Positions 5,560-62,545 of a DNA stretch of 64,000 nucleotides are shown here, in pieces. Each line of letters starts with the position of its first letter. Positions within the stretch are counted from its first letter, which is position 1. Source of the stretch: Gnetum montanum (lineage: Eukaryota; Plantae; Gnetophyta). The DNA lies in assembly GCA_015680685.1 (NCBI GenBank), contig MNCI01000813.1, positions 18,800-82,799 on the forward strand, written 5' to 3'. The position numbers and the translations under genes were made by a program. A model generated the notes under the pieces. It was not told where the DNA came from. It worked only from the letters and a program-made list of their open reading frames with translations, and made no database searches.

Positions 5560-6375
5560 TGAATAAGTTCCCCAAAATAAAATTAAACAACCATAAAAAC
5601 CATATTCAAATTTTATGTTGTTCCCCAACTAGGGTACATCCACACTTAGAGGATAGATTTCTTGTCCATCCCTAGAATTTTATTCTCAAAAATGTGGTTT
5701 TAAGGAAACTGCACCATATACAAGCTTTAAGCTCCTCTCTAGAGTGTTTTTTCATTGTGAAACTACTCAACCTCGTAAGGTCCCAACAAGCTTAGAATGT
5801 GGTTTTAAGGATTCCACAAACTTTAAAGATTAAGCTTAACTTTGGAATCTTTTGATGATATACAAACACTAATTCCATAGAATCTCAACAAGCTCAATGA
5901 TGATTCCTTCTCACAAGAAGCACATCAACCCCACAAAGCAACAAGAGACAGAGATGAAAACACAAGGAAAGAGTGTAACTCAAATTATAGATCCTTGTAC
6001 TTTGATGCATAATTATATAAAAAATCAAGCAATTGATATGACAAATGAAGTACACACGTATAATAGAATAGATTACATAATGATTTCTTTGATGTTGAAA
6101 ATTCTTTTTGACTACTTGCACTATATCTAAGAGAATTAATTTTTGTTATAGGATTCAAGTTTCCAAAATCACCTCAGAATTCATGCAATGGCTATCTTGT
6201 TGCAACCAAAAATCTCAACCATAGAAAGCCAAGGATCCTTAGTTGTGAATAGTCTCAACCTTGAATCCCTAGGCCCTTTGAGAAAAATGGGATTTAGGGT
6301 GCCCTAGATGGTTTGGTAGATCACCTAGAGAGTTAGGGGGATACAAAGTGGGGTTGTGAAAAATGTAACAATTAT
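5560..6375 (-). mobile_element. LTR-like block of an unidentified element, truncated by the Tat insertion
   Basis: Begins TGAA exactly where Galadriel coding similarity stops; non-coding with LTR-like composition. No partner copy in the window. Confidence 0.35.
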
Positions 6376-6380
6376 AGATC

Positions 6381-7684
6381 TGTAAACCCAAAAATGCACA
6401 TTGCACAAAAAAAAACTATAAAATTTATTAAATAAATAAATAATGAGTTCAGAAATTTGTACAAAAGTGCCTGTAGGAGAGCAAAAGGGGGTTCACATGG
6501 GCAGGGGTTCCTAGTTTGTTGAAGCTAATAGAATCCACTTCATGATCTAGATGCTCAATCACTTTCAATGTTGTCAAAGCTTCTCTACTACCACTAAATA
6601 TTTGTAACATTGGTCACTATTGGGGTTGAGAAATGTGAAGGATTAGAGCTATTAAAATGCTCAACACTAGGATTTGGGAATCCTAGGAGGGCAATGTTAA
6701 CACACAAGGCTCACAAATCGTAAGGTGGGTAATAGGGGTAATAAGAGTATAATGATTCTATGTCAATAAGCTTCAAGAATCTACATTTCTACTAGGTAGA
6801 TAGAGCTCTTGAATTCCCAAGATGCCAAATTCTTAGAAATTCTAAAGTGTGAAAGCTTAAAATGGTGTGAGCATAGGGCTTTTATAGGTCTTTGGCGATG
6901 ATTTGGGCTGAAAATTTGCAATAAATGGCTACCATATTAGTTTGCAAATTTTTGCCATGTTTAGGAAGGTAGGTGCCCAAAATCTAGGTGATTATCATAT
7001 ATGGAAATTCTAATCCCCCATGAACATTTTGTTTACCAAAAATAGTAATGAGGATGTACCTTCCACATCGGCTTTGCTCCTTTCATGATGGGTCATCAAC
7101 CTTCCACGTTGGCATGGTAGGGTTCTTGATAGAGTTGATGCGATGTCAAAATATTGGTCATGTTGCTTCTATGCTAGGGAGAAGGTGTTAATTTTGGGCA
7201 AGGGGATGAAATATTAATGATTGGCTTGAAGCTCAAACCCTTCTATGTTGAGTATCACCTTCCTTCTATGTTGGAGGTAGGTGAGATCCACCCTCTTGCA
7301 AACCTTTACACTAGTTTTGATGCCTCTACTCTAGGAGTAGGTGGCCCACACTCCTCCACACTAGGGATGGGTGGGACATAGCCCCTTGTTGGTGTTTTTA
7401 GCATTAAAAGTGCATCCCCTTCATAAAACCCATCAAATTACCATTTTTAGCATTCAAAAAGGCATTTTTGACCCCTCCCAAAGCCCAAATATAAACACTA
7501 CATGACTCTTTTCACTTGGGGAATGAGGCTTTTTCCACTTATGAGGCATTTTTAGCCCCAAAGTATCACGTATGTGGGATTTCCTCTTATGGGCTACAAT
7601 CTTTAGATTTAGAATGATGTTTAGCCACAAGTTTCATGGGATGGGGTTAAAAAGGTTATAACATGCAAATTTAGTGGTGTTTCA
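6381..7684 (-). repeat. Putative 3' LTR of T1
   Basis: Termini TGAAACACC...CATTTTTGGGTTTACA on minus. PPT-like AATAGAGAAGGGCC lies immediately upstream (7687-7700), TATA CCTATAAAA at ~6880-6888, and CCT(T)CCACGCTGG-like motifs at 7050-7370. Boundaries inferred without a partner LTR. Confidence 0.55.
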
Positions 7685-8629
7685 TTGGCCCTTCTCTATT
7701 AGTGCCTAGAGGATTGACCTAAGAGGCATCAAAAAAGAATACAAGATACCACTACAAGTCCACCATTGACATTTCCTCTTTGTTCTTGATTCAATCATGT
7801 CAAACCATGCCAGAGAGTGCTTATGATGATGGGATAAAACTATGATGAGATGGTGGTAATGGTCATTAGGGAGATGGTCATGGAGGCTAACAATGCATTC
7901 CAATTGTTGTCATCATGGGTATAACATGATATTAACATGTTTTAAAGTGTTGGTTACTCGACAAATATGTTTGAGGATTCAATCACTTCGCTCCAAGATT
8001 TCTTTGGCCATTGGGATTTAAGACTCTATTGGCCATTCAACCTCTTGGTAACTTTCTTCCTTATTTTTTTTATTTTTTTGTGGGGTGAAACCTTCATTGG
8101 ATCTCATTTACAAGATCAATTTAATATAGTTTTCCCATTGAATTAGTTACATTACACTCAATGGAATTGGGGCTTTTCCATTAAAATGAAGCAAGTTACA
8201 CTTGATGGACTTAATGGTCTTCCAATTGAATGAGCTATGTTACATTCAAGCAGACTTCAAGATGGATCATGATGAAGAAATGTCATGAAATCATAATGTA
8301 TGAATGTCAAATATTGGTCAACATTGTTATTCAGGATAAGAAAGGCTATAATGAGATTATGGGGTTGGGCTCAAGGTGTGGTGCTAGATGAAGGGAAATG
8401 GTGTAAGCACTCTTGACATAGCAGGGGAAACTCATCAAATTGTGCACATCAAGGTCATATAGTAACTTTTTGTTGTGAGTTGCACCTTTGTGAAAACTCT
8501 AAGCTTCATGTTGCAAACATAGCTCCAAGAGGATAAGAAAACCAAGCAAATAGAGTATTTTATAATAATACAATGCCTATAGGTAACGTAGACAATAGAA
8601 AAAATCTACCTAAGTCATCCATGTTGCTA

Positions 8630-8770
8630 TTTTAATGCCATGGTAGGCCATGATAAAAATTTAAGGCCTTGGCAAGCAATGGTGCTAGTTTAAGATCATA
8701 ATAGACCATGGTGCTAGTTTAAGGCCCTGATAGGACGTATTGCTGATTTAAGGCCTCAATAGGCCATGAA
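8630..8770 (-). repeat. Short degenerate tandem repeats (~25-30 bp, TTTAAGGCC...) in the T1 3' UTR
   Basis: Repeated TTTAAGGCC/ATGGTGCTAGTTTAAG units; related arrays occur at 36290-36470 (reverse complement) and 41540-41710. Confidence 0.65.
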
Positions 8771-8819: not shown

Positions 8820-11800
8820 TACATGTAGTTCATATGTAATAAGGCTTTAGATAGGAAGGATATTACATATGACCTACATGAGTTATCTATGATCATAACT
8901 CAAAAGATAGCTTTGAGGACAATATCATCCTTCTTAATCTTATAATTAGTCAAGTTATGATGGTTTTTCCATTTTGGCCTCTCTTGATAGTGCTCAACAT
9001 GGGCAACTTCTTGTATACATTGCTCCTCCATTGAGTCTAGGTCCACTATCTGCAACTCCTTTCTTTGTTCATCATTGATGTAGTTGGTCAAGGCCACCCA
9101 AAGAAATGTTACATGTAATTTAAGAGGTAAAATAGCTTTAGAATAATAAACCAAGCTATATGGTGTTACACTAGTTGTCATGTGATAATTTGTACAATAG
9201 GCCCAAAGTGCATGGACAAGCTACTTATGTCATTTTCACTTGTTATTATTGATCATCTTATTGAGCAAGTTAATGATGACCTTGTTACTTACTTCTACTT
9301 GTCCATTGGCTTCTAGGTAATAACGTAAGAAAGCTTAATTCCTAGGTCATGATAGAAATCCTTTATTTCTTGGCTACTAAATTGTGGTCCATTGTCTATA
9401 ACTATGATCATGGATATGTCAAAATGCGCTACAATGTTACCAAGGATGAATTTACAAACTTGTTGGAATGTAGTCTTTTTTAGGGGAATAGCTTCATCCC
9501 ACTTAATAAGGTATTTGGTTGCAGTGATAATGAAGCTATGTTTCGTAGAAGACTTAGACATTATAGGCCCGATGATATCTAAACACCATCATTGAAATCA
9601 CTAGGTTATTTGAGTGATATGAAACTTAGTTGGTGGTAAGTGTATAAGGTTGCTACGTTGTTGGCACCTGTCATAGTGCTTAACCTTCTGTAGGCACTCA
9701 CTTTTCATATAGGGCTAGTAATAGCCTAACTATATAATCTTAGCAGCCATAGCTCTAGGTCCTATATGTCCCCCAAAAACACCCTTGTAAACCTAATCTA
9801 GGACTATTCTAGCCTCAACTTTACCCAAGTAACTTAGAAGTATGCCATCGTAGGACCATCGACATATTGTGTTACTGCCTCCTATGACATACTATTTTGA
9901 TTGTTTACATACAAAATCCTTTTGAGTAGTAGTTAGGCCTTGTGAGGATTCACCATGCATAAGGTAAAATTTGATATCATCATATCATTCCCTAGCAAGA
10001 GTAGTATGAACTACAGCCATAGAGATATCCTCAACACTCTGCATGATGAAAATAGCACAGTCCATAATTAAGGTGGGTAACTTACCAAGCACATTTGGCA
10101 TCACATTGAGGGCTAACGTTGCAATTGCATTAGCTATGACATTTTCATTTCAAGGTATATGCTAGATATCAATAGCTATAAATTGTTCTAATAATTGCTT
10201 CCCTAAGTCATATTAAGGTTGTAAATTTTTTTCTTTACACACATAGATCTTAGTCACTTGGTTAACCACAAGCTGTGAATCATCTTTAATCATTAATTGC
10301 TTGATTCCTAGGTCACAAGATACCATAATTACTCTAATTAAACCCTCATACTCTACTATATTTTTGGTACATGAAAAATCAAAAATGATAGGTAAAGGAT
10401 TGGATTTCATTAAACGGAAATGATACAATGCCAGTGGAACTAGCTCTATGGGAAATTGAAGCTCTATCAATGTACATGACTACCTCATAGCCCTCAAGCA
10501 CTTGGCTAATGGTGTTGACATGTTCATCAAGGAACTCAGGAGCTATGGTTGCATGGTCATCAATAGAAAAAATAGTGAGTTGTATAACTATAGCTTGACC
10601 TTTCATTTAGGATTGAGATATGCAATGAAGGTCAAAATCTATGATTATGGTTTTCCATTGGGCTATACAAGTGCTTTCATAAATGTTCATCATTATGGTT
10701 CTAAACATGTTATATTTGCAAATGACATTGACTTGCCTCTTTAAGAGGTAGTATCCCCACTTCTTCAATGAGAAGACTAGTGCTAGATAATATTTCTCCA
10801 CTTCAGTGTATAGGGTCTCATGGGAAACTAATGCATGACAAAGGTAGTATACTGGAATCTCTACTCCATCATCACATTTTTGATAGAGAGGTGATGGACA
10901 TGTTGAAGATATCAAGGTAGATGTAAAATATTTTACCTTCTTGTGGAGGATAGACTATTAGTATCTGTTACAACTCTTGCTTAATTTTTTCAAAGGCCTC
11001 TTAGCATTGATCCATCCACTCATAGTGAGCCCCTTTCTTCAGTAAGTATTTCATGGGTTGTAACTTATCCAAAAGCCTAGTGATAAGCCTAAGAATAAAT
11101 TTTAATCTATCCTTTAATCCCTAAATCTCCTTAAGTTTGGTAGGTGTTGCTAATTTTGATATGGCCTTAACCTTGTCAGGATCAACACGAATCCTTACTT
11201 TAGATACTACATAGCCAAGCATCTTACTAGTCTTAATACCAAAGAAACACTTCTTAGGATTATCGTCATTAGCATGGTCATTTGTCACTTTGGACTTAGC
11301 AGTTATATCGTCTATGTAATCATTGAGCAAACCTAATATGTAATCACTAAAGATATAGGTCATGGCTCTCTAGTAAGTTGCCCTTACTTTATTAAGGTCA
11401 AAGGACATCATTGTATAGCAAAAGGTACCCCAAGGGGTTATGAAGGTCATGCTAAGATGGTGTTATGTGTTGATCCTAATTTGATTATATCCTAAGAATC
11501 CATCCATAAAGGACAACAAGGCATGTCTAGCCATAGTATTGATAAGTTGATTTATACTAGGCAAAGGAAATTCATCCTATTTGTCACTTTATTTAGGTCT
11601 TAGAAATTGATGAAAATGTGGATACTTCCATTTTTCTTAGGGACTACCACTATGTTGGACACCCATTCTATGTAGTCAATAGCTTGGATGAAACCTGCTT
11701 GCTAGAGTTTTGAGATCTCATCACGAATTGCTAATGCCAAATCAGGTCTAATCTTGTATACTTTATAGTTAACTAGTCTAATGCTAGGATTAAGTAGAAT

Positions 11801-12125
11801 GTTGTGTTGGACTAAACATTGGTGTAGACCTACCATATTTTCATATGATTAGGTGAAGACCTTAATATTATCTTGTAAGACTTTGGTGACATCTCAAGCC
11901 TATTGAGACTCTAGTGAGAAACTTAGTTTAAGGGTTTTCTCCTCACTAGTGTGTGTCATGATAGGAACCTCAACTAGAGAATCTTTAGTTATGTCACTAG
12001 CCTCAAGGTCAAAGGTTTTAACTAGGATTTTAGGCATTATAGAAGCTATGTGGTTGACAAGACTCTCAAGCTCAAGATCTATGCAATTAGGGTTGACATA
12101 CAATTCTACATCATCATGGGATCCA
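8820..12125 (-). pseudogene. pol: Tat-type pol pseudogene: RT (~11100-11850), RNase H (~10600-10950), aRH (~10110-10490), integrase (~8820-9900)
   Basis: RT YIDDITAKSK and NPKKCFFG; RH PVYYL...YTEVEKYYLALVF; KGQAI linker; aRH CTKNIVEYEGLI...DDSQLVVNQV; INT HSFIITATKYLIKWDEAIPL...IDNGPQF and KAILPLKL. Confidence 0.9.
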
Positions 12126-12833
12126 TGTAGGCACAAAGACAAACTGATTTACTTCTAGGTACTCATACTTTAATCCTAAATGTCAACCAAAAGCATATTA
12201 AGTGGCACCTAGGTAGATGTGGATAAGGAATGCTAAAATTCTATAAAATTATGCAAATACATGCTATTCTAATTCAAATAAAGTCATCGAAGCGTATGAA
12301 TAGAGTAAAAATAAGCAAAAAAATTACAATAAGGGCCAAATAAATGTCAAAGAAAGGAAAGTACAAGAAATAAGGCTACACATGGTTAAGAAAGGTTATG
12401 ATTTTTTACCAATTTAGGGCCATAGCATGCCATGATCACATGGTGTCAAATGGTAGTCAAGGAAGGTCAAACCCCACCATCTAATACCAATCAAAGGCTA
12501 AGCAAGTCTATATAAGGCTATAGTGTAAAGAATCTAGGGCTAACATATTGAGATAAGAAGTATTAGTGAGGCTAAGCAAGGTCAACAATGCATAATAGGT
12601 CATAATATGATAATAAAAGGCATCAAATAAGGTAAAGTGGGATATATATGGTGAGTCCTAGTTAAAACATGGTTAAAAATGGGTATATTCTACTAGTTTT
12701 AGGCCTTAGCAAGCCATGGCTTGAGGCTACACGTGTGATGGGGTACTTTGGGCATCAATTAGGGTTATTTCTAGGTTGTTTGAACTAAGAAAAAGGAAGG
12801 ATTTTAAAGCTTCCATGTTAGACCCCACTTGTT

Positions 12834-15734
12834 TCCACACTAGCGAGCCTGGAAGGGGTGACCCTTAATGCAGATGAAACGTCCAAAGGATTTTCAAGGC
12901 TTATTTTGATTAGTTATTTACTCTTGATGGCTTGTATGTCAACGTAGTTGACTGGAGAAGGTCATACACTACTTTTAACACCTATTTCAATGTCTAGGAC
13001 TCCCCTTTGAGCCTAACATTGTCTTCCACACTAGTTTCACACTGGTAAGTGTGGAGGTAGTGTGGGGAACAAGGAAAAAATGTTACATGACATCCAAAGA
13101 TGTTTAAATTAGGGTTCTAGGGCTTACCTAAGCTAGAGTAGGGCTACAATTATCAAATAGAGTCAATTCAAGGGTCACGAAAAGCTAAAAGGTAGGTCTT
13201 AAAGTTATACTTCCTTGTCTCCATGCTAGCCAATGTGGATGGAGGGGGCTTAACATAGAGAATTCAAATCTAGGCTCAAAAAAGGCTAAAAAATTTCATG
13301 GAAAACCTAAACCAAGTTCTAGTACTTGTGTAGCTCCTAGATATTCTTTTAGGTCATCTGGATGAGGTTTCAAGTGTCAAAGCAAGTTTGATGTAGTCTC
13401 CATGTTGGATCCATACTAGCCAATGTAGAGCCAAAGTGGAGCAGAGGTGGTAACCCTTGATTTTTAATTTTAGGATGGTCTAGAGAAAAAATCAACTAGG
13501 TTTCTAGGCCCCTAGGGTTGCAAACTATGATTTTTCAAGTTTTTGATCAATTTTAATTATGTTTGGAGGCTATTTGAGGTCATGCAATGTTAAACCCCCT
13601 TTGATCCATGATGGGGAGGTTTCTCTAGCATGGAGGATGGAATTTGATGAATTATAAGGACTAAAACAAGGTCAAACTAGTGTAATACTAGATCTATGAA
13701 CTCCTAGGATTTACCAATGTATTTTTTTGGCTTTCCAAGAATGTCAACTTACTATTGAAAGAATAAAAGTAATCCTTCCACACTATTTCCATGTTGGCTA
13801 GTGTGGAAGAAAGGGTGCCCAACATGGATAGGTCATAAATCCTAGATCTAGGCTAGTTTTGACCATAATCTATCATGCATGTTGGCCCTCAGGGTTGTAG
13901 GTGTCAAGGGTTAGGGTTTAGAGTTAAAATCTAGTGGTTTCTAGGATTCTCAAGTGGTGTTTTGAGTCATTCCCCTTGGATCCATGCTAGCTAGCATGGA
14001 TCCAATGTGGAGGACTTTAGGAAATGGTTTTTCTTTTCTTTTTTTTTTCATTTGTTGATATGTATTGAACACATATGCATGTTTTTAGGATCACTGGTGT
14101 TAATGGCTAAGGCTCAGGGTCAGAATTTGGTAATTTTTAAGCTTGTTAGATAGTTCTTGGGCTCACCCCCTTATTTTACATTGGCTCCATGCAAGCCAAT
14201 ATTGGTAAAACGTTGGGGATAAGAGGGAATTAATTTTTGATTATTTTTAATTAGTTTTGGCTATGCATGTCCATTCCTAGAATCACTAGCATTGAGGGCA
14301 GAGCCTAGGATCAAAACTTGGTAATTTTGAGGGTCTCTTAATTATTTTTTGGCTTTTCTCTTTAGTTCCATTCTAGCTCCACATTGGCCAACATGTAACT
14401 AGTGTAGAACACATTAGGAGATTTTTTATGGCTATTTTGGGTAGAAATTTTGAATTCTGAAAGCTTCCAAATGTGTGAAAAAGATTCTAGAATAAGTATA
14501 TGTTAGTTTCATGTTATTTTTATGTATTTATGATCTCACATGAATCTTCCTAGCTGCATTTGTGCTAGCTCCATGCTAGCCAATGTGAAAGAGAGGGGTC
14601 CTCTTCATGAAGGCCAAGAAATGCATAAAAATGATTATTTTTGTCTTGTTTTAGCTGCCACAGCCTTTGAGAAGGTTGGGTTGTTCATAAAAGTCCATTT
14701 GCAAGAAAATCTTGAGAGTTTTGGCTATGTCCCCCTCCATCCATCCTAGATCCATGCTAGCCAATGTAGATAGGTTCTCCCCTCATCATGGATAAACCTA
14801 GTGTAACGTTTTGAGCTACTTTTGACAAGTTTCAATAGGGTTTCAAAGATATTAAGGCTAAAGAGGATATAGAGTCCCAATTCAATGTTGAAATTAACTA
14901 GTTTGAAGGCTTCTAGGTGTTCATGCAGTTATCACCCCCCACCCCACCCATTTCATCCATGCTAGGTAGGGTGGCCTTACTATGGAAGGAAAGGGATTAA
15001 TGACTTTTTGACATTTTTGACTAGTTTGGGAATGACTAAAGGCTTTGAGAAACTCTAGCAAGGTCTAGACGTTACTAGGGTAGGTTATGGGGTTGTTTCC
15101 AGCTATAGAGAAGGTTAGATTGGACATCCCTAGGGCATCCACATTGGATCCACACTAGCTAGCATGGAGAGGAGGGTTCACCAGTGAGGAGAAACTTCAA
15201 GGATTGAAATTGACTTAAGCTTTTGTTATTGTTAACTACTAGAGGTAATGGGAAAGAATATTGGGTGTTAAGGTGACATTGATGATCTTTGAAGGCTTGG
15301 AGAAGGGTTTTAGATCATACCCCCTAAGCCTCAATGTTGGCTCCATTCTAACTAGCATGGAGGAGGGGTTCACCAACATGGATCAACTATGTCCAAAGGT
15401 TTCATGATCTTTTGACTAGATTTGATGAGGTTTTGAAGCTACTAGGACTAACTAGAGGGGTTCTAGGTCATGTGGGCCCACTTCATGGATGAAATTTGGG
15501 TGTGATGGGTAGTTAGGATAAGAATGGGTGTTACCCCTTGGATCCATGTTTGGCCATGTTGCCCTAGCATGGAAACTGAAAGTATCTAGTTTTGATAATG
15601 TTTAACCCCTTTTCAGAGCCTGAGGTTGAATGAGGTAGGTTAAAATTGCTAAAATTGGCAAGAGAGCTAGCTTTTATTTCTTTTATAAGGTTGGATGCAT
15701 GCATCCATGTTGGCTCTAGGCTACCTAGTATGGA
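12834..15734. repeat. Degenerate tandem array, ~16 units with ~190-bp period, each with palindrome TCCACGCTGGCCAGCGTGGA (CpG-restored consensus)
   Basis: Palindrome copies start at 12834, 13036, 13220, 13410, ~13605, 13788, 13981, 14186, 14378, 14570, 14751, 14956, 15149, 15342, ~15553 and 15715. Confidence 0.85.
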
Positions 15735-17100
15735 TGCATAGGGGTTAAGGCTAGAAGATGACTTTAGATGTTCCACAGGGTCAAAACCCAAGCATTGATG
15801 GAGTTTTGGGACTAAAAATAGCATGTATAAGGGCATATGGTGGGGCCCATAGTCCAAAATTTTAAAAATCAAGAAAATTAAATGTAACTATTTTTCTCTT
15901 CCACTCTTAGCTTAGAGAATACTTTTTCCCCCTTGTAATTTAGTGCACTTTGAATTCCAATGCACCAAATTGGAAATAGAGGTGAGAGTGGGAGCGTTTA
16001 TGTTTAGGTTTGATTTTTATGGTAAAGTTGCCTAAAACACCAATCACACTTTCCATGACATACCAAACACATTGGAGCATACCTATAGGATATTTTGGTG
16101 CTAGAAACACCATCTTCTTTCAACATTGAAGCACCAAAATTTCCTCCTAGCAAGAGAAGCCTCAACTCTTTAGTTTCCATGCTTCTCAAGCGTTGGTGTA
16201 ACCATGATGAAGGAACATGGATCAACTGAAAACCCAAGGATTCAAGAGGTAGATGAGACTATTTATAACCTTTTCAAGTTTTACAAATCTATTTCAATTT
16301 GGGATTCCTCCTCACTCACTCCCATGTACGCCATCTCTAACCATTTTTCATCAATTTCCTAACCATTTTTGTATTTTTCTAGCTAGGATAGGGTTATTTT
16401 CATTAGATCTATGAAAAGGGGGTTGATGAAGTTAAATTAAAATGAAATACTACATCATAATTTAGCTATTTCTATGTAGATATAGGATTATTGTGTTGTT
16501 CAATCTTTGATAGAATTTATTTGTAAAATAGGCTTGCTTATTTATATGTTTTTTCTAAAAAATTATGAGTGGAGTCATTTTTGTTAAATCTAGGCTAATA
16601 CTCATGTTAAAGTTAAATTATAAGAAACTAAAACAACTTATTTTGATGTGTTCTTACATGGGTTTAAGTTTATTTGTCTATTTAGGCTTCAATTCGTGGC
16701 TAAACTAAATTAGGTTTTATGAATTTTGTGTTTTCAAATGCTTTTTTGATGAAAAGAGGAAGCAAAGATGTGGATATTTTATTAAGAAAATAGCTAAATG
16801 TTGTTAAAATATAAGGTTATTGATTTTTAGTATTATGTATAATATTTACATTGGTTGTGGTCTCATCTAATTTAGATTCATAATGAGGATGTTATGGCTA
16901 TTTCAATTATGTTGTGTAATTAAGGTTTATGCCATTTTTGAAAGTTTCATCCAAGTTTAAAATTTGTTTTGAATAAACTATAGAGTTTTTCTATTTTCAC
17001 TAAGCATGGATGCATAGGGCTTGATTTATCTTTCAAAAACTATTGGATTCACTTCGTTTGGAGCTCAAACAAATTTTTGGTGAGATTTTTACAAACCTTT

Positions 17101-17990
17101 TCGATGAGCGGCTAGGTACCCCTATGCCCAACGATACGAATCACGAGTGTTTACATGCAACTTGGTCGAATCTCGTAGATTATAAACACTTAACATACAC
17201 TAGACCCTAACTAGGAAAACCTTGTTGTTGTCTTCCTAATCTCACTTGTGATATTCTATTTGCAATGGTTAAGTGATGTTAAGGCTAATGATTTTTATAG
17301 CTTTTTACTTATCTTTTTGCGTCTCATTAAAGTATGGAAGGTAAAGGATGAACTAATTTCTTATCTATAGTTATCCTAATTTGTATTCTAACTATTCCTA
17401 GCATAAGTATCTGATCCCATCTTCCGGGCACGTTCTGAGCATCCCCTAAGCACTTCTAGGTTACCAGACATTAAGCATCACTGGGTTCACCAAGTGTTGG
17501 GTTTACGTTCGAGATGGTTGTACTTATGGCCATGAAAAACTATAAAGGAGTGATAGCAATTAAAATAACAATATCAGAAACTTAAATAATTAACAAGCAA
17601 TTAACAAAGCATAAACATATTAAACTTATGAATGCATAAAATGGATAATTCAAAATGCTGTAAAGAATTCTTAAAGAGTTTGTCTTTATTGTCGTCACAC
17701 CAATGGGCTCAGATACATCAACACTCAAATAAAGAGCTGAGCACTTTTCTTACACTTGCTATAGGCACTTGGAAAATATTCTATCTCCTGCGGGAACAAA
17801 CTACAAGAGCTTCACTAGAACTAATTGAAAGGTACCTAAATGAGGCGGAAGGCCCTCTTATTTATAGGATGAAATAGGTTCTGTGTAAATGGGGCCGCAT
17901 TGACGCATGAAATGCTGCGTCGATGAGGCCACGTCGATGTGGCCGTGTATACACCACCTAGTCGATGCATCAACTAACGACACTTCATCT
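17101..17990 (-). repeat. 3' LTR of A2
   Basis: Direct repeat of 28950-29848. Preceded on minus by PPT CAGTCATGGGGGTA (17991-18004). TATA ~17859-17867; GCCGCGTCGACG-like motifs at 17890-17970. Confidence 0.92.
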
Positions 17991-18232
17991 TACCCCCATG
18001 ACTGAGTAAAAACTTGTCCTCGAGTTACTCTACAATTTGGAAGGTATGGGCTTTTATTTACAACACACATGACTTGACACACACACATGACATAACATCA
18101 ATTTGACCAAGTGCCCAAGTTACAAAGAAGGAAAAATTACAGAAAATGATGGTGTTCAGAGATAAAATTGAACACCTTGCTTTTCCTAGAGCCTTTGCCA
18201 TGTAGGATGATGCAAAAAATTGTTGGAGAAGA

Positions 18233-21087
18233 TCACACCATCCCTGGGGGTGGTGGCTTTGATGGACCTTCTCTAGCCTCTAGCCCATGTGTTGGCGATG
18301 CCATGAATGATGCTTGTCCCATAGTAGCTGCAACTTCTAGAGGTAGCCTAAAAGCCTCCAAGAGAGCCCTAATCTTTTCTTCTTTACTTTTGGGATCGTT
18401 CACTATCTAGGTAGCTTCTCCAATGTGTGTTGGAACTGGAACCTCCCAAGGGCATGAAAGCTCCAAGAAGAGTTCTTTCAGGTTGACAAACAAGGCTATG
18501 AACTACTTGTGTTTGATGTCAAACACTTAGATTAATGCCTGCAGCTGCTGGTAGTCATTCATTCTATGGGCCACGTTCTCTGCAACTATACATTATCCTT
18601 CAAAGCTTGTGCGGTGAACCTCGAGTTCCGTGTCTACCATTTCTAACTTCTACTTTGTTGCTTTGTGCACCTAGAACTCTTCCTCGTATATGGAATATGA
18701 GGCAACCACTTTTTTTCCAACTCTAACCATAGTATTTTGGCTATGAGCATATCCATGTTTTCATAGCGAAGGTTGGCAAGCTCCATATATTCTATCATCT
18801 CCTTAATCTACAACTCCTTAAGGTGGATTTCAGCTTGATTGTAGTCATTTAATCCATCAAAGATATGTTGCCATACCTCGCCTTCCTCTCGGAGCTGTTG
18901 GAGTGCTTGGTTCATCTTAGCCTTGGTGACTTGAATATGCTTTTCATTCACCTCTTTCTACAACCCCACTTGGTCCCTGTAATGATTTTTGACTTTTTCA
19001 AATTTTAGGACCTCATTCTTCCAAGCAGAAATTTCAATTGCAGACTTCTGTCACAATGCCCAAACCTTCTCCATTGACAAATTTTGATTCTCAACGGCCA
19101 ACCTTCTTACATCAGCATTCACCCTGGCTAATTCTTCCTACTATTGGTGGATAAAAGTTTTCATGTGTTCATTTTTTGCACCGATATTATGCAGGTGATG
19201 AACCTCCGTGGTCAATCAAATGTTCTCCTGGAGAACCTCCACCAAGTCCTTGTCTAAATGATACGCTCAAACATCCACCAAGGACTTATCGAAGATCACT
19301 GTCTCTCACACATCCTCAATGATTTGAAGTTTGAGTTAAAGCTATTGAAAAGCTTCATCTCTGGTGATTACGCAGTCAAGGATGGCTAGATAGGCAAGTT
19401 AGGCTTTTAATTGGGCTACTTCTATTGCCAAGCATTGACAAGAGACTTGACCAGCTTCAAGTTGCCCTTCTAAAATAAGTCTCTTACCCTTTTCCATGAG
19501 CAGCTCTGACTAGGTTGCAGTAATGTTTTTCGGAAGGTCAAAGACATCTGGAAGCGGTTGCCCAGTTCCCACCAATCAGTCCAACAACTCCTGATGTTGG
19601 GCTACATCAATCTTGCTACACAAAGTTCCAACAGATGCATGTACATCCTGTAGTCCATGAACATCTAGTACAGGTGTTGCTAGTGCGTTGAGAGCCATAG
19701 CAATTGTGTCAGCAACAACTTCGGCTGCAGTCTTCTATTCTTGGTGTTGCATCACTAGGACTGTTGCCCCTTGACCATCTTCAAGGCATACCGAAAAGGT
19801 AGCAGCATTTCCAAAAATTTAAGGAAATAAGTCTTGTGTGAACATTTTTACCTCTCAGACAGTAGGATCTATTCGTGTAGGCACTTGCATTCGGGCTGTG
19901 GAGAGCATCAACCCTACCCTTTCAAGTATGCTAATTGATCGAGCCACTCACTCCAACTGGCTCATTTCAGGGTGATAGACCGAAGGGTCTTCTCCTCCAT
20001 GAGTCCTAGTAGATTTCTCTTGCTGACTCAAGAGCATTTCTTGGATTTCGTGGATGTGTTCTACTATGGTTTCTGAACCCGGCTGTGATGTTTGTGCAGG
20101 TGGTCGAGGTGGTTGCTGCTCCTCCTCTGTCTATGTGGTGGAAGGAGTTTTATCCTTCATCATGTCCTGCCAAGAGGTAATCGGGGTGTGTTGGGCTACA
20201 TCATTGAAGTACCATGCTATCCCTACTTGTTTGCACAACTTTTGAATTAGGTAGGAAAAGGGGAAATCTCGTCTTCCACATTTGCTCTCAGCGAACCTCT
20301 TTTCAATCTCCAAGAACAACAGTTGTGGAATACTCATTGGGAATTTCCCACTCAAGGTGACACATGCACGGGCGGAGAAGGCTATGATTTTGCTGGGTCT
20401 TACCATTATGTTCAAGTGGTAAGACATGATCTTTGAGTACACCCTCTCCACCATGGTCAAAGAGCCAAATTCCTTGTGCTCTACCCCATAGCACTATTTG
20501 GTCCATTCCACCTTTACCTCTACATTGGCTTGCTTTGAAATTTTCACCACATTTGCCCTAGCCTCAGGTAACCCCAAAGCCTATGCTATTGCCTCCAAAG
20601 AGTAAGAGACATAAATTTCTTTGATTCTTACTCTAGACCCTAGTTGCCAATTCATCCAGAATAGGTAGGTCTCTCCTAACTACCATTCACCACTGGTTGT
20701 GATGATTGGCCACATCGAAAAGTTTTGCAGTTGGAGTCTCACTTCTTCCGGTGCATTCTTGAGGAATGGTCTAAAGTTTAGCTCTTGTAGGACCATCTGT
20801 TGCACCTCATGTAGCTTGATAGCATCAAGATAGACTTGGGTCAAGGTGACCTCAAGTCGTGGTGCTATCCCAGGAGTCTCATCCCCTTGCGATTACTCAC
20901 TGGGAATCTCCTCTTTGGGAATCTGATGGATAGATTCCACATTAGGTCCTTCGTCGAGGGAACTAGTTGCATGAGAGCCCTCTGCATGCTCTGGCTATTG
21001 CACATCTCATCCCCTTCCCATGTGTGGGTGGTTGTCCCTCAGTTGTGATGGTCCTTCACCCCTTGGGTGCCTTGGTTTGGGTGCCAT
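18233..21087 (-). pseudogene. Athila env-like/ORF2 accessory protein pseudogene (plant transposon domain plus coiled coil)
   Basis: ATG at 21087 (MAPKPRHPRG). Contains RVRIKEIYVSYSLEAIA*ALGLP...FPFSYLIQKLCKQVGI, resembling the Athila ORF2 (Transposase_32-like) domain, then a Q/E/K/L-rich helical C-terminus. Stop near 18233; many internal TAG/TGA. Confidence 0.75.
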
Positions 21088-23079
21088 CTTCAATCAAACA
21101 TGACCACCCATTAGATCATGCATAAGTAGCTCAAGATGGTCCTTATACACCCTCTTAGTTTGACTAAGTTATGTTATTGGCATAGGAATTTCTTTAAGTC
21201 TCCCATAGTGTTAATTTATGGGTTAGAGCCAAAATTTTTGTAATTAACTAACTGATTAATTAATTAATTAATTACACATAAGCAACCCCCCCCCCCCCCC
21301 ACAACTGAGAGCATACCTCTAATTGCTTAAAAGGATGAGGATCGGTTGATATGGATGCGCGATAGAATGTAGGTGCTTAGGGAAGGGTTGGGCAGAAAAA
21401 TTGGCAAAATCTCCCCTAAATTTGGATTCCAAATGATGAAAATTTCAAAGCACAATGGGCATATATATAGGGATTAGGCGCTACATCGACAAGGTCCTAT
21501 ATATGTAGGGGTGTGCACTGGTTGACCAACATTGACCAACCCAGAAAAAGCCCAAAAGGATGAACTTGAAATACCAAATTAGGGCAGTTGAAGCACGTGA
21601 GAGGCCTGGACATGGCAAATGATAGGAGTAGGAAAATTGGGGCTTGAGAAAGAGTCAAAAGTAGGAGAACGTGACTCAAAAGTACTTCACAGGGAAGAAA
21701 TTGAGCGATGGATGGCATAAAAATAAGCCACCAACCAACCCCAAGGATGAGAGACTAACGAACAACACCAACAATATGCAAGTAGGTCCTCCCCATAGTA
21801 GGCGATAGCCTTTGTAGCCCTTGCATATCCCCAACACCGGGGTCTGTGGGCCTCAGTGCGAAGGAATGGTGAACATAAGTTAAGATTTCTATCCAAGAGA
21901 ACCTACTTAAGCATAAGAAATTCATGAGAGATGCAACAAACAATGAAGTCATAACATTGGCAGTGGGATGAGGGGAGGAGAGAAGTGGGTGAGAGAAAGA
22001 AAAATGAGGTGTGGATGTCCAATGATCAGTTCCATGAAACCCCCACATGAAGCTATGGTTAAGCAACCTGATAGAACCTTTTCCAAGTTCAGACCCAAAA
22101 CCAACCACATCTAGTGACATCGCATCAACACATGAAGACTCATCCAGCACCCAAGTGGGTAGGAATGCACTCATAGAGAATCACCACTCCAACAGACGTG
22201 AGAGGGAGGAAGCAAAATGAGACCAAGTTAGAGGGGATAGAAGAAGTCCATTACTAGTGTTAGTGGCCCATGAGAGGTAGTCTAAGGAGTGTGCTTTGAA
22301 TTCCCACATGATGAGGATTTTATCCTTATGTTTTCTTTTGGTTTTCAATTTATGGGAACCACACCATGCGAAGACCCATGCTTGTGTACATGCATTTGAC
22401 CAAGGGGTGTGCTTTGAATCCTCATGGTTTTTTTTTCATTTTTTTTTTCTTGTTTATTTTTTCTTCATCAATTTTTGATGAGTACCACACCATGCAAGGT
22501 CAAACTACCAAGGAGCTTCCTTGTAGTGAAGAATTTGGAGTGGCAAGGAATCCGTAAGGGCACTTGTGCCACCCAAGGGTAGAAGAGGATGATGAATGTT
22601 GAATTCCCCTTGAAGTCACATCCTATGAAAACCATTGGGTCATCCTCTAGTCCAAGAACTACACAAGTCACATATTAATTAAAATATTTTTAAAAATGAA
22701 CTAGGGTTGCATGATCCCGATGGTAGGAAAACCACAAAGTTGATGAATGGGTGAATGATGTGGACCCACTACTGATATTATGAGGTGAAAGTAACCACAA
22801 AAATGAAGAACAACCATGCAAGGGCAAGACTGGGGTAAAAGGTACACCATTCACCCATCACAAGAAAAACCATCCATGCCAACCTGACAACAACAAGATG
22901 ATTTGTTAGTGGCAACAAAAGTGGAAATGAGACAACAAACAAAGAAATGGAAAAATAATGAAAATAGTTAAAGAAAGGAAATTTGTAGCAAGAATAGAAA
23001 ATGTAGTAACGATGTTGAAAAATAAAAAAGTGGAAAAAAAAAATAAAAAAAGTGAGGGGTGATCAGCATTGAAAATGGT

Positions 23080-23095
23080 CTCCCCCACGACTAGG
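23080..23095 (-). promoter_or_regulatory. Internal second polypurine tract (A2)
   Basis: CCTAGTCGTGGGGGAG just after integrase mirrors the terminal PPT; an equivalent is at 56092-56108 in A3. A duplicated PPT is a known Athila trait. Confidence 0.7.
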
Positions 23096-23149
23096 TGGAA
23101 AGGAGGAGACGCGAAATATGGAGCGAGGCTGTCCTAGTGATGATGGGGC

Positions 23150-26100
23150 AGTTGCACTAGTTGAGTGAAGTTCACAGAAAGGTTTCAGTTGTTGGCGATT
23201 GATTAACTACGTTTTGGTGGGGTCCTCAAGTTTGTGATAAGCAAGGCCCTAGATGGAAAGGTTTTTGAGACAATGTAAGGTCCCTCCCATAGTGTTTGAA
23301 ACTTGGTCGGTTAAGATACATGGGAGGGGTTCCAATACAACACCTTTTCTACACATCTAAATGTGACCTTCCAAATCCTAAGATCATGTCATTTTTTGTT
23401 GTAGGCCTTGCGGATCTTATTGGAAGATATGGCCACTAATCAGTTCTCATCTAGCACACTTAAATTGATAAGTCATTCATGTTGTGCTAGCGGGAGGTCA
23501 AGGCCCAAGTCACTGGCGGTGGATAGTATGCAAGGTTCGACCTGAATTAGAAGTGTGGGTAACTTTTTGTACACTAACTCATAGGGAAAGTACCCTATAG
23601 GAAGTTTCTAAGTGGAGTGATAGGCCCATAGGGCATCATTAAGTTTGGAACTCCAATCCCTCATGTATTTGCTAATGGTTCAGATAAGGATCTTGGTGAT
23701 CTCCCTATTGGTAACTTCGACTTGCCCATTGGCTTGGGAGTGATAAGGTGTTGTAAATTTATGAATAACCCCCAAGTGTTGCATGAGTTTCCAAAAAGTG
23801 ACACTTGTGAAATTAGTCCCATTATCATAAATGAATGCACATGGCACTCCAAACCTGTTGAGAATTTTTTGTTGGAAAAATCGTGTGGCGGTGTTGGAAC
23901 AACAGTTGACAATGATTTCTACTTCTACTAACTTTGTACAGTAGTCCACAGCTATGATGATGTATACATTTTCATTTGAAAAGGGTGTGATGGGCCCCCT
24001 GAAGTCAATACCCCAGAAGTCGAAGGGCTCCAGTGGTTGGATCCACTGTTGAGGTCCCTCCAACCGTGCCAACATCCCACCATCTTTTTGCCATCATTCG
24101 CAGGAGTGGGCAAATCATTGTGCATCTTTGAAGATTTTGGGCCAATAATACCCTACAAGCAAGATCTTAATGATTGTGCGGCATCCATCATAGTGGCCCC
24201 CACAAGGGCCCTCATGAGCATCATGGAGGATGCGTAGTGTATTATCATCAAGGACATACCATCAAACTAGGCCATCTACGCACACCTTCTAAAGGTGGCT
24301 GTTGATTTCCCTGAAATGATTAGCCTTTTAAAGAAACTATTGTTTCTATCGATGGTTCTACTCCTTTGGTAGCTCATGGGTTGTGAGGTAGGTGAGGATG
24401 CAGTTGAACCAAGGGGAGTCCTTAGACAGTTGTGGATCGACTACACCTATGAATAGGAGTTCATCTAAAAATTGGATGGAGAGGGGCTCCTCCTCTTCTG
24501 TGTCATCCTATCGTAACTGAGACAAGTGGTCAGCTACCACATTCTTGGTTCCTTTCCGGTCTACCATGGTGAGATCAAACTCCTGAAGAATCACCAGCCA
24601 CCAAATGATGTTGGGGCTCACCATTGGTTTGTTCATCAAGAACCGAATAGCACTATGGTTAGTATGGACAAACACCTTCTACCCAAGCACATAGTATCAA
24701 AATTTATCCAAGGTGAACACCACCACCATTAACTCCTTCTCGGTGGTGGTGTAGTTAAGATGAGCACCCAAAATGCTATGGCTTTCATAGTGGATATAGT
24801 ATGGACATTTCTAATCATCACACTATGTAAGCATGGCTCCCAAGGCATAATTAGATGCATCCATCATGATGTGAAAGGTCCTGGACCAAACAGGTTCTCG
24901 TAGAACTGGAGTTTCCATGAGTTTCTATTTAAGCAATTGGAATGTAGATTCACATTCCTTAGTCTAGATGAATGGAGCATCCTTCTTTGTATGTTCTACC
25001 AATGGCTTGGTGATCTTCGAGAACTTTTCAATGAAGCACCGATAGTAACTAGTGTGTCCAAGGAAGGATCCAACATCTTTTACAATGCTTGGTTGGTGGG
25101 TGATTCGTTGGATGACCTAATCTTTTTAGGATCCACACTAATCCCTATTTGTGAGATGTGATGCCCTAGTATAATGCCTTCTTGGACCATCAAATGGCTT
25201 TTCTGCTAATTGAGCCATAGATTAGTGTCTACACACCTCTTCAGAACCTACTCCAGATGGTCCAAGGCTTGCTCGAACATAGCTCCATAGGTAGAGAATT
25301 CATCCATGAAGACTTCTACTCCATTTCCAATCTGTTGCTAGAATATGTTGAGGACAAGGTGCTGGAATGTAGCAGGTGCATTACATAGGCCAAAGGGCAT
25401 CTTCTTGTATGTGAAAGTCCCCCATGAACTTATGAACGTTCTTTTATCCTGGTCCTTGGGTGCTATTTTGGTTTGGTTATAACCACTATAACCATCCAAA
25501 AAGATGTAATAGTGGTGCCCTACAATGGTTTCTAACACCTAGTCCACAAATGGGAGTGGAAAGTGATCCTTGAAGGCAGCCATGTTGAGCAACCGAAAAT
25601 CAATACAGACCCTGCATTTGCCATCTTTCTTTGGCACGATAACGAGTGGGCTGACCCATTTTCTATCAGTAATAGAATAGATAAACCCTACCTTTAGCAA
25701 TTGCTCAATTTCATCTTTGATGACCTACTTCAATTTTGGGTTCAATCATCTTTGTGGTTGTCGTCATGGCTTCATGGAGGGGTCAATATAGATCCAATGT
25801 TAGCAAACCCTGTGATCAACTCCAGTTAACTCAAAATACGACCATGAAAATGTAGCATCCCATTTGTTTACCACCTTTAGAAATCTCTTCTCCTGTTCAG
25901 GAGCAAGGGTGGCATTGATAATTACCGGCTTTCCATTTTGCAAAAATGCATATTCTAAGTGAGCTGGTAAAGAATTTAGCTCCAGGGGATGTTCTTTGAA
26001 GCTCTCAGGGATTTATAGCTTCCCCCAGTCATCATGGTCATCAATAGTGGAGACCTGTTGATGAACCTCTTCCATTTCTTCCATGCTCTTAATGTAGGCT

Positions 26101-28804: not shown

Positions 28805-28930
28805 GTAATCAATGTACCTTACTATTTACTTTAATCCACCTAGCATGCATAAATCTTTCTATCTTGGGTTTGTTCCAACGACTTGAATGATAATTTCACC
28901 AAGGTTAGATGACACATGTAAGACTAACAA

Positions 28931-28948
28931 TCCCCAGCAACGATGCTA
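28931..28948 (-). promoter_or_regulatory. Primer binding site, tRNA-Asp type (A2)
   Basis: Minus strand TAGCATCGTTGCTGGGGA adjacent to the 5' LTR. Confidence 0.8.
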
Positions 28949-28949
28949 A

Positions 28950-29848
28950 TGATGAGTGGCTAGGTACCCCTACGCACAACAATATGAATACAGGCATTCA
29001 CACAAGACTCAGTCAAATTTCGTAGATTGTCAGCACTTAACATACACTAGACCCTAACCAGAAAAACCTTGGGTTAGAATGGTCACTGTCTTCCTAATCT
29101 CACTTGTGATATTCTGTTTGCAATGGTTAAGTGAGATTAAGGCTAATTATTTTTATAGCTTTTTATTTATCGTTTGGCATCTAACTAAAGTATGGAAGAT
29201 AAAGGATGAACTATTTTCTAATCTATAATTTTCCTAATTTGTATTCTAACTATTCCTAGCATAATTATTCGATCCCATCTTCCAGGAATGTTCTAAGAAT
29301 CCCCTAAGCACTTCTAGATTACCAGATGTTAAGCATCACTGGGTTCACCAAGTGTTGGATTTACGTTCAAGATGGTTGTACTTATGGCCTCAACAAACTA
29401 TAAAGGAGCAATAGTGATTAAAATAACAATATCAGAAACTTAAGTAATTAACAAGCAATTAACAAAGCATAAACATATTAAACTACTAAATGCATAAAAT
29501 GGCTAAGTCCAAATGCTGCAAGGAATGCTTGAAGAGTTCGTCTTTATTGCCCTCACACCAATGGGCTCAAATACATTAGCACTCAAATAAATAGCCAAGC
29601 ACTTTTCTTACACTTGCTATGGGCACTTGGAAAATATTCTATCTCCTATAGGAACAAATTGTAATAGCTTCACTACAACTAACTGAAAGGTACGCAAATG
29701 AGGTGGAAGGCCCTCTTATTTATAAGCTAAAATAGGCTCCACATAAACGGGGCCATGTTGATGCATGGAAGGCTGCATTGACGAGGCTGCGTTGAGACGG
29801 CCACATATACGTGGCCTAGTAAATGCATCAACTAATGACACTTCATCA
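28950..29848 (-). repeat. 5' LTR of A2
   Basis: TGATGAGTGG...CTTCATCA, direct repeat of 17101-17990. Confidence 0.93.
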
Positions 29849-30544
29849 CCTATGTAGAAGGGGATTTATGTTGATGACTATGGTTGTGTAAATCTAGCTA
29901 TCTCTCATGTAAAATTGGTTATGTATTTTTGGTTGTACTCATTATGATTTCAAGATTCCTTCAATGATGGAATTATTAGAATTAGATCTTTGTAGGAGAT
30001 TTTATGAATTTTTAACTATGCTTCTGTTAATCAAGCTTAATTCTAGTTGTAGCACTTTACCCCTTGAAGATGGATGTTATTTCCATGGTTAGATATTCCT
30101 CTTGCTAACTTCCATGCTCCTAGGGATTCCTAATGATATAAACTATGCTCTAAGGTTGGTTTCATGAGAAATAGAAATTTTTACTATTATTAGTAAGCTT
30201 TCTCCATGGCCATTTTAAGTGTTAATTCTTTTTCCTAAATTAATGTATGGTTTGGACTAAGGCATAATTTTGGCTATGATGTTTAGGCTGTAATGTTTTT
30301 TCTATAATGGTTTAATGGCAATGGTTGTTTTAAACAAGTTGTTGTTGAATCTCTAAATGAATTTTGGCAAACACTTTAGAGTTTTTTATAGGAGTTAATT
30401 TCACCCCTAACTAAGGTGTTTTATGAAATTTAGAAGGAAATTATAAGCATTGAAACATAATGTTAACAATATCCTACTGAAGCCAATACTCATTGTGATG
30501 AGTTGGTAGGCATCTTGAAACACAACCAAATTTGGACTATGACA

Positions 30545-32210: not shown

Positions 32211-32216
32211 GTTTTC

Positions 32217-32233
32217 TGGCATTAGAAGGAGGG
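32217..32233 (+). promoter_or_regulatory. Primer binding site, tRNA-Asn type (T2)
   Basis: TGGCATTAGAAGGAGGG is a deaminated TGGCGCTAGAAGGAGGG, a PBS used by Tat-lineage elements. Confidence 0.75.
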
Positions 32234-36100: not shown

Positions 36101-36289
36101 CAATGCAGCATGTTACTTACATGTAATTTTATTACTTAAATTACCATTTTCATTTCCTATGCATTCAATAGCTTAGTTTACATTTCTACCATTGTTTCTT
36201 TAATGCATTTCCTTTCATGCATAAAAAACATCAAAATGCATAAAAATCATAAAAACTAAATTACAAAAAAAGTGATAACAACATAATAG

Positions 36290-36470: not shown

Positions 36471-36689
36471 CACTATCATCCCATAATACTAAGTTAGCAT
36501 ATTAATTCATCACATTATAAGCATAGCAAGCACATATCAAAAAAACTATAAAAAAAAATTTACACATTACACATTACATCTATCAAATACATGCATTAGA
36601 TATGATATGAATAGTAGTACATAGCATGAGTAGCATCATGCGACAAAAGTATAGCAAAAATAGCAAAAAATGCCCAGTAGTAGGGGTAC

Positions 36690-62544: not shown

Positions 62545-62545
62545 A

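What the first reader, a model, noticed from the sequence alone, without database searches (positions are those of the whole stretch)
12834..15734. Nucleosome-spaced array of a conserved 20-bp palindrome upstream of an LTR TATA box
Seen: about 16 copies of a motif that restores (C>T, G>A) to the perfect palindrome TCCACGCTGGCCAGCGTGGA. Spacings are 162-211 bp (mean ~192) and the array ends ~90 bp before a TATA-like GTATAAG at ~15825. Many units carry extra half-sites (TCCACGCTGG) at 11-bp steps, e.g. 13399/13410 and 15138/15149. Spacers are much more diverged than the motif; only neighbouring units (e.g. 13981 and 14186) still resemble each other. Established: ~190 bp is in the range of plant nucleosome repeat length and ~11 bp is one helical turn. 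Inference: selection kept motif and period while spacers drifted, as expected for a phased array of sites for a dimeric protein, one per nucleosome. This resembles how VANC anti-silencing proteins target repeated motifs in VANDAL transposons, but here it is in a retrotransposon.
Basis: partly seen in the sequence, partly recalled or inferred. Interest (0 to 1): 0.8.

Follow-up and report, generated by a model that had tools for sequence, protein, structure and literature searches.

The report
Evenly spaced palindromes inside a retrotransposon
A long-dead plant jumping gene carries 16 clusters of one mirror-image DNA motif about 192 bases apart, likely in its interior rather than its end repeat; the motif stayed fixed while the DNA between changed, so it likely served as a row of protein landing sites, and the match to nucleosome spacing is suggestive but unproven.

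Summary
The array is real: 16 clusters (14 full 20-bp palindromes) at a mean period of 192 bp. There are 26 strict half-sites in 3.1 kb against 5 in the other 61 kb. Motif positions outside CG/CHG are 92% conserved while most spacers no longer align, which a uniform neutral model does not reproduce. The placement needs correcting. No LTR evidence was found; the array most likely lies inside a minus-strand Tat (Ogre/Retand-type) retrotransposon, in a gap of at least 5.6 kb between protease and RT. The same half-site clusters in that element's own LTR. A sister element has a different motif in its LTR and upstream of an antisense gene. This is the layout of Sirevirus repeated motifs. The nucleosome reading is open: the period is in the plant range and spacings step by about 10.5 bp (p about 0.01-0.02), but their spread is not clearly below drift and the sister's periods are 52-125 bp. 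All 28 motif CGs decayed, no binder is identified, and no RNA support was seen. Earlier scan notes found the gap architecture elsewhere in this genome and similar arrays in fungal elements, but not this array.

The parts
12812..15734 (.). Array of 16 motif clusters, mean period 192 bp; each a 20-bp palindrome (two head-to-head 10-bp half-sites) with 0-2 extra half-sites at 11-bp steps
13788..14378 (.). Three units whose spacers still align: the most recent tandem duplications
   Evidence: Z 6.8-10.4; alignments
15825..15831 (+).
   Evidence: sequence; does not fit the stricter pattern met at the real LTRs
16082..16090 (+). Second, decayed TATA-like candidate followed by a pyrimidine-rich stretch (inferred antisense promoter)
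   Evidence: sequence; function inferred
16249..16254 (+). Splice-donor-like AG|GT followed by T-rich DNA (inferred first intron of an antisense transcript)
   Evidence: no spliced read
12150..12761 (-). Non-coding DNA between the array and the RT linker; relatives continue collinearly to 12761; one copy of the 29-bp repeat motif at 12689-12722 (weak match)
   Evidence: loose ends at 12731 in 3 of 4 DNA runs
8900..12150 (-). Broken pol of the host element in the order RT, RH, second (archaeal-type) RH, INT
   Evidence: Pfam RT_RNaseH, RVT_3 and rve; RT has no Pfam hit here and is read from translations and the depth peak
8619..8768 (-). 29-bp tandem repeats after INT, homologous to 41538-41678
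   Evidence: score 111 vs null maximum 33
6200..7390 (-). Likely 3' LTR of the host; TATA at 6888; its end is homologous to the sister's LTR end; left and right limits approximate
   Evidence: start inferred from loose ends at 7406 and recalled Tat LTR termini
7103..7364 (-). Four half-sites of the same motif in the U3 part of that LTR, irregularly spaced, without the paired palindrome
   Evidence: expected 0.06; P about 8e-5 after allowing for windows
17102..29850 (-). Younger nested LTR element (LTRs 84.5% alike) that interrupts the DNA downstream of the array; 17101 joins 29851
   Evidence: target-site duplication read by eye, 4 of 5 letters
41200..43600 (-). gag-PR fragment with 29-bp repeats, likely the 5' half of the host or of another copy of its family
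   Evidence: linkage inferred
30500..40800 (+). Sister Tat element: LTR, PBS-like site 32217, gag-PR, 29-bp repeats, multi-exon antisense gene (about 39400 to 36700), and its own half-site motif (e.g. GACTATGCTCTCCA at 30611) in LTR U3, leader and upstream of the antisense gene

Best explanation
The array is a family-specific row of palindromic DNA motifs, likely protein-binding sites, that likely lies inside a Tat-type retrotransposon between its protease and reverse-transcriptase genes, where it would have driven a backward-facing internal promoter. Shown: the motif, its conservation against unalignable spacers, the 11-bp half-site steps, the same half-site in the element's likely LTR, and a sister element with a different motif both in its LTR and upstream of an antisense gene. 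Inferred: a ~192-bp unit was amplified by tandem duplication long before this copy inserted; selection during the family's active life kept the half-site while spacers drifted; one regulator, binding half-sites in pairs one helical turn apart, would have switched on both the LTR and the internal promoter. The most likely regulator is the family's own antisense-gene product, because the motif changes between families; a host factor is not excluded. The ~192-bp period is taken as the inherited unit length, possibly tolerated because it fits chromatin. This copy was later methylated and is dead.
For: Motif positions outside CG/CHG match in 154 of 168 cells. In star-tree neutral simulations the best 12-column window reached at most 0.79 (300 runs) at a divergence where spacers still align at Z 4, and 0.72 at Z 2.2, nearest the observed mean Z of 1.5. 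Listed contigs from other copies that span spacers are 80-93% alike to this copy (7 pieces; only pieces at least 80% alike are laid), while adjacent units are 52-65% alike over aligned columns, so units diverged before the family spread. Loose ends at 12731 (151, 173 and 102 contigs in 3 of 4 runs) return after 15 unlike letters to match 12747-12761 at 13-14 of 15 letters. Four half-sites lie in the host LTR U3. The sister has its own motif at the same kinds of place. No compensatory changes are seen and half-sites occur unpaired, which favours sequence recognition over hairpins. Published parallels: Sirevirus motifs sit in the LTR and upstream of the extra gene (PMC2829016); maize Grande gene23 has its own antisense promoter (PMC7264820).
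Against: No antisense ORF survives downstream of the array in this copy, and 15700-17100 has no DNA similarity to the sister's antisense upstream region. No listed contig bridges 12762-12834 (one search shows only a small part of its tables). RNA runs gave 80 reads over 11700-17095, none at least 99% alike, with no joints. The link of gag-PR at 41200-43600 to this copy is inferred. The sister's antisense protein has no family, homologue or confident fold. The neutral null is a simple star tree with uniform rates.
Confidence: 0.5

Rival explanations
1. One reading: the period itself is selected, one cluster per nucleosome linker, as a loading platform for a self-encoded VANC-like anti-silencing protein.
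For: Mean 192 bp lies in the plant range of 182-200 bp (PMC11140268). Spacings cluster at steps of about 10.5 bp (R 0.56; p 0.008 at fixed 10.5, 0.024 when scanned; the 11 cleanest intervals p 0.003-0.005) near 182, 192 and 202, which equal 147 plus 10n+5 linkers (yeast rule, PMC2522279 abstract). The four-half-site core is 42 bp, about a 45-bp linker. VANC is structurally related to MAIN (PMC13547354), and Tat extra ORFs often carry the plant mobile domain (PMC4408406).
Against: Spread of spacing is not clearly below drift: P(SD<=12.6)=0.25 and P(SD<=9.3)=0.03 at the highest divergence simulated. The quantisation test is post hoc, intervals are not independent, and slippage between 11-bp half-sites gives the same steps. 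The sister family's periods are 82-125 and 52 bp and the host's LTR half-sites are irregular. Motif CGs decayed 28 of 28. No binder identified.
Confidence: 0.22
2. The palindromes act in RNA, as hairpins in the genomic transcript or its PR-RT intron (small-RNA source, dimerisation, packaging or splicing control).
For: Four-half-site clusters are inverted repeats; 12800-13790 folds with z -3.35 against 20 shuffles. Sirevirus palindromes form hairpins and are siRNA hotspots (PMC4728375). Ogre splices the PR-RT region (PMC6317226).
Against: Any palindrome array folds well. The sequence itself is invariant, with no compensatory changes. Unpaired half-sites occur in the LTR U3 and at +31/+32.
Confidence: 0.1
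3. The array plus TATA is an old LTR or solo LTR of another family, captured in an ancestor of this subfamily.
For: TATA-like box, pyrimidine-rich stretch, donor site and T-rich tail also describe plant LTR R/U5 regions (recalled). Contig depth drops from 4437 to 227 across 12757 in run X1. No listed contig bridges 12762-12834.
Against: No PBS-like site, second copy or LTR homology; collinearity through the TG candidates at 12734-12736; the motif matches the host's own LTR; depth in the host's LTR U3 (335-716) is as low as in the array (164-768).
Confidence: 0.1
4. A functionless decayed tandem repeat whose best-kept segment was picked out after the fact.
For: Tat/Retand interiors often hold family-specific tandem arrays of unknown role (PMC11963269); neutral drift can explain the period's regularity.
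Against: The best-window null, which includes this ascertainment, never reached 0.92 at the required divergence; the same half-site recurs in the LTR in a different context.
Confidence: 0.06

Closest known systems
Sirevirus repeated motifs (Bousios et al. 2010, PMC2829016; 2016, PMC4728375; passages read)
   Same: High-copy, family-specific, CG-containing palindromes kept amid divergent non-coding DNA; present both in the LTR upstream of the TATA box and upstream of the extra gene; function untested.
   Different: Those are Ty1/copia with a CGG-CCG core and a sense extra gene after pol; LTR copies span 300-500 bp. Here a Ty3/gypsy Tat element, no CGG-CCG core, a 2.9-kb array with a regular 192-bp period, between PR and RT, facing an inferred antisense unit.
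VANC/VANDAL anti-silencing system (Hosaka et al. 2017, PMC5735166; passages read)
   Same: Short motif accumulated by tandem duplication in non-coding parts; motif differs between related families; element carries an extra gene (seen in the sister).
   Different: VANDAL is a Mutator-like DNA transposon; its 9-bp motifs are not palindromic; binding and demethylation are shown there and not here; the word 'nucleosome' does not occur in that paper's main text.
Retand/Grande antisense ORFs and Ogre PR-RT intron (PMC11963269, PMC7264820, PMC6317226, PMC4408406; passages read)
   Same: RH followed by second RH then INT; gag-PR split from RT; family-specific tandem arrays; antisense gene with its own promoter (Grande gene23).
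   Different: Retand's antisense ORFs and arrays lie between pol and the 3' LTR; Ogre's PR-RT gap averages 274 bp. Here the gap is at least 5.6 kb and holds the array, and in the sister the antisense gene follows PR.

Membership tests
   self-BLAST and sensitive tiles; window only, so truncation could hide it
   one PBS pattern found only at 32217; relatives continue through the TG candidates at 12734-12736; right end not searchable past the nested inserts
   scores 29.5-36.5 within null
Sirevirus repeated motifs | Palindromic motif, at least 8 copies, highly conserved | tested here: met
Sirevirus repeated motifs | Copies in the LTR upstream of the TATA box | tested here: met
   four half-sites at 7103-7364, TATA at 6888 minus; half-sites only
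Sirevirus repeated motifs | Extra copies upstream of an extra gene | tested here: inconclusive
   no ORF left in the host; met in the sister with its own motif
Sirevirus repeated motifs | CGG-CCG core; Ty1/copia Sirevirus host | tested here: not met
   motif sequence; domain order RT-RH-RH-INT is Ty3/gypsy
VANC/VANDAL | Family-specific motif amplified by tandem duplication in non-coding DNA | tested here: met
VANC/VANDAL | Element-encoded protein that binds the motif | not testable with these tools
   sister ORF unassigned:
VANC/VANDAL | Local loss of CG methylation at the motif | tested here: inconclusive
   0 of 28 CGs survive in this old copy, so no lasting protection; young copies not available
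VANC/VANDAL | Mutator-like DNA transposon | tested here: not met
Tat clade, Ogre/Retand type | Second RNase H between RH and INT | tested here: met
   RT_RNaseH 10607-10954, RVT_3 10213-10479 (E 8.7e-5), rve 9313-9588; definition
Tat clade, Ogre/Retand type | Ogre: short spliced gap between gag-PR and RT | tested here: not met
   gap at least 5.6 kb; no spliced read
Tat clade, Ogre/Retand type | Retand: antisense TRP28 ORF between pol and 3' LTR | tested here: not met
   host INT-to-LTR stretch is about 1.5 kb with no ORF of 70 aa; sister ORF follows PR and has no Pfam hit
Tat clade, Ogre/Retand type | Placement in the RT phylogeny | not tested
   no reference set on hand; one search found no homologues
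Nucleosome-phased site array | Period within the nucleosome repeat range | tested here: met
   192 vs 182-200 bp; this plant's own value unknown
Nucleosome-phased site array | Period tighter than indel drift, or quantised by helical turns | tested here: inconclusive
Nucleosome-phased site array | Same period in a related family | tested here: not met
   82-125 and 52 bp in the sister
Nucleosome-phased site array | Phased nucleosomes in MNase or ATAC data | not testable with these tools
   no such run listed

The most novel reading that the evidence does not exclude
A plant LTR-retrotransposon lineage carries a self-encoded anti-silencing circuit in its PR-RT gap: an antisense gene whose product binds a family-specific palindrome laid out once per nucleosome linker (147 + 10n+5 bp) upstream of its own gene and again in the LTR, so that the element writes its own phased, open chromatin.
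Probability: 0.15. Interest if true: 0.85.

Novelty: new variant of a known kind. Interest (0 to 1): 0.5.

Why it matters
Antisense extra genes and repeat arrays of Tat elements are common and of unknown role (PMC11963269), and Sirevirus palindromes are still untested. Here two related families each put a different motif in the LTR and in the internal gap, which gives a direct, crosswise test: each family's antisense protein should bind its own motif only. If the 192-bp period is phased to nucleosomes, it would show a transposon encoding chromatin geometry in its DNA. If not, it extends the Sirevirus pattern to Ty3/gypsy elements and to a new position between PR and RT. Seven literature searches of an open-access library listed no paper whose title or abstract start describes a nucleosome-spaced palindrome array in a Tat element; only the listings and the passages named were seen, no supplements.

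Tried and rejected
No whole genome is held, so no genome-wide copy alignment was possible. A two-unit pattern found 0 matches in viral contigs and 1 in metagenome contigs; that locus, L001, is GC-rich bacterial-looking coding DNA and is taken as chance. No RNA holder was listed. Four raw RNA runs (about 2%, 2%, 26% and 26% read) gave 37, 5, 22 and 16 reads over 11700-17095, none at least 99% alike, mostly partial fits, with no joints: no support for expression or splicing, and no proof of silence for young copies. My first idea of an LTR starting at TG 12734-12736 was dropped; the TG at 12816 is a decayed CG of a half-site. Homologue searches failed for the host RNase H and for the sister's antisense ORF (Pfam; one search gave one hit, P0001, a repeat-rich unrelated protein). 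That ORF does not match the nested element's extra ORF in the one frame compared. Its single-sequence fold had pLDDT 45.8 and the fold search gave nothing at E<=0.001; both are uninformative. The protein atlas was not available. An unbiased palindrome scan of the window was too noisy to rank regions. The A/T-tract profile around the motif fits neither a dyad nor a linker model clearly. Contig joints between units hint at copies with other unit numbers but rest on 20-25 letters. Look-ups of earlier notes by this sequence and by 'nucleosome' words found nothing. The organism was not identified.

Full report
Setting. The window is a nest of old plant LTR retrotransposons with strong CG and CHG loss (CG observed/expected 0.15, CAG/CTG about 0.4). 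No whole genome is held. Public DNA runs under six coded organism labels hold the stretch or parts of it (14 of 24 rows); the organism was not identified.

The observation. Of 16 full-length hits to the 20-bp palindrome in the window, 14 lie at 12834-15734, and two further clusters have a disrupted centre. Strict half-sites number 26 in 3,096 bp against 5 in the other 60,904 bp, with at most 2 in 1,000 shuffles. The mean period is 192.1 bp, SD 9.3 or 12.7 by register. Each cluster is built of 10-11-bp slots: an extra half-site at -11 in 10 of 16 clusters, at +21 in 3, at +31/+32 in 4. Across 14 palindromes the 12 positions outside CG/CHG match in 154 of 168 cells; 0 of 28 CG and 1 of 28 CHG sites are intact, nearly always changed by C>T or G>A. 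Near-identical contigs in runs of two organism codes show the DNA is real.

Motif against spacer. Only 16 of 105 spacer pairs align at Z>3 (control 5 of 105; mean Z 1.5), the clearest being three neighbouring units and one distant pair. A star-tree null with uniform rates, using the substitution and indel spectrum of three duplicate pairs in the window (311 substitutions, 9 gaps), gave a best 12-column conservation of at most 0.79 at spacer Z 4 and 0.72 at Z 2.2, against 0.92 seen. Seven listed contigs from other copies that cross spacers are 80-93% alike to this copy (the lay keeps only pieces at least 80% alike), whereas adjacent units are 52-65% alike over aligned columns. I infer that units diverged during the family's active history while the motif was held by selection, and that the motif then decayed by methylation after this copy inserted.

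Where it sits. To the left, on the minus strand, lies a broken pol in the order RT, RH, second RH, INT, the Ogre/Retand order (PMC6317226, passages). Then come 29-bp repeats and a likely 3' LTR at about 7390-6200 with a TATA box at 6888. The array has no second copy in the window, no PBS-like site behind it and no homology to either nearby LTR. In 3 of 4 DNA runs, 102-173 contigs leave the window at 12731 and return after 15 letters to match 12747-12761 at 13-14 of 15 letters, so relatives run collinearly through the best LTR-start candidate. No listed contig bridges 12762-12834, so continuity up to the first cluster is likely but not shown. Four half-sites of the same motif cluster in the host's LTR U3 (expected 0.06; P about 8e-5 after windows). 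To the right, a younger element (17102-29850) and a plus-strand sister Tat element interrupt the host. A minus-strand gag-PR at 41200-43600 shares the 29-bp repeats more strongly with the host (score 111) than the sister does (72.5) and is likely its 5' half. The PR-RT gap is then at least 5.6 kb.

The sister as a model. It reads LTR, PBS-like site (32217), gag-PR, 29-bp repeats, then a multi-exon antisense gene (about 39400 to 36700). It has a different half-site motif in its LTR U3, its leader and upstream of that gene (40603-40774), with a minus-strand TATA at 40346. By analogy the host's array, followed on the plus strand by TATA-like boxes (15825, 16082), a donor-like site (16249) and T-rich DNA, would be the upstream region of an antisense gene that this copy has lost (no ORF left; no DNA similarity to the sister's region).

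The nucleosome question. For: 192 bp is inside the plant range (Arabidopsis 182-185, rice 188, maize 191-194, cotton 196-200; PMC11140268, passages). Spacings fall near steps of 10.5 bp (R 0.56, p 0.008 fixed and 0.024 scanned), close to 182/192/202, the lengths expected from 10n+5 linkers in yeast (PMC2522279, abstract). Against: simulated drift gives a similar spread (P 0.03-0.25 at the highest divergence); slippage between 11-bp half-sites would give the same steps; the test is post hoc on non-independent intervals; the sister's periods are 82-125 and 52 bp. I leave it at about one in five.

The protein question. The sister's antisense product has no Pfam family, no credible homologue and no confident fold. 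VANC binds tandemly amplified, family-specific motifs and lowers methylation (PMC5735166, passages); it resembles MAIN (PMC13547354, passages), and Tat extra ORFs often carry the plant mobile domain (PMC4408406, passages). The link is plausible but untested. Complete CG loss shows no lasting protection of this copy. RNA runs gave 80 poor-fitting reads and no joints.

Comparison and verdict. The closest known case is the Sirevirus repeated motif: 8-32 conserved palindromes per element, in the LTR upstream of the TATA box and upstream of the extra gene (PMC2829016, passages; PMC4728375, passages). Retand elements carry antisense ORFs and family-specific arrays after pol (PMC11963269, passages), and Grande gene23 has its own antisense promoter (PMC7264820, passages). 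The array works like these but is a member of none: it is Ty3/gypsy, lacks the CGG-CCG core, lies between PR and RT, and is regularly spaced. Unreviewed scan notes report similar palindrome arrays with extra genes in fungal retrotransposons. That PBS, LTR-start and R/U5 features look typical of Tat elements is recalled knowledge. No supplements were read.

Noticed in passing
window 30593-31100, 31404, 32496-32534, 40603-40787: The sister Tat element has its own half-site motif in LTR U3, leader and upstream of its antisense gene, with periods of 82-125 and 52 bp.
   Followed up: partly
window 36700-39400 (minus): Broken multi-exon antisense gene after PR; no Pfam family, homologue or confident fold.
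   Followed up: yes
window 8619-8768, 12689-12722, 36348-36467, 41538-41711: A 29-bp repeat family occurs after INT, before RT (weak match) and after PR in both elements; the array and antisense unit may have been inserted into such a repeat block inside an Ogre-like intron (inference).
   Followed up: partly
window 5074-5239 and 5656-5821: Perfect 166-nt inverted repeat, 100% complementary, with N letters at or near the left arm; possibly an assembly artefact or a fold-back.
   Followed up: no
window 17102-29850 and 53182-63333: Two related nested LTR elements (LTR pairs about 85% alike); the first has an extra ORF with a weak Transposase_32 hit (E 0.016, far below the cut-off) and both carry about 87-bp repeats.
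   Followed up: partly
window 40800-41200: Junction between the sister, which lacks RT-INT and a 3' LTR, and the minus-strand gag-PR piece; one deletion could explain both this loss and the host's missing antisense gene (inference).
   Followed up: partly
window 44728-45128 and 60803-60914: A 204-bp two-copy duplication (76%) and an exact 57-bp duplication next to an N, the latter possibly a gap artefact.
   Followed up: no
L001 10001-10199: Chance match of the two-unit pattern in GC-rich bacterial-looking coding DNA.
   Followed up: yes
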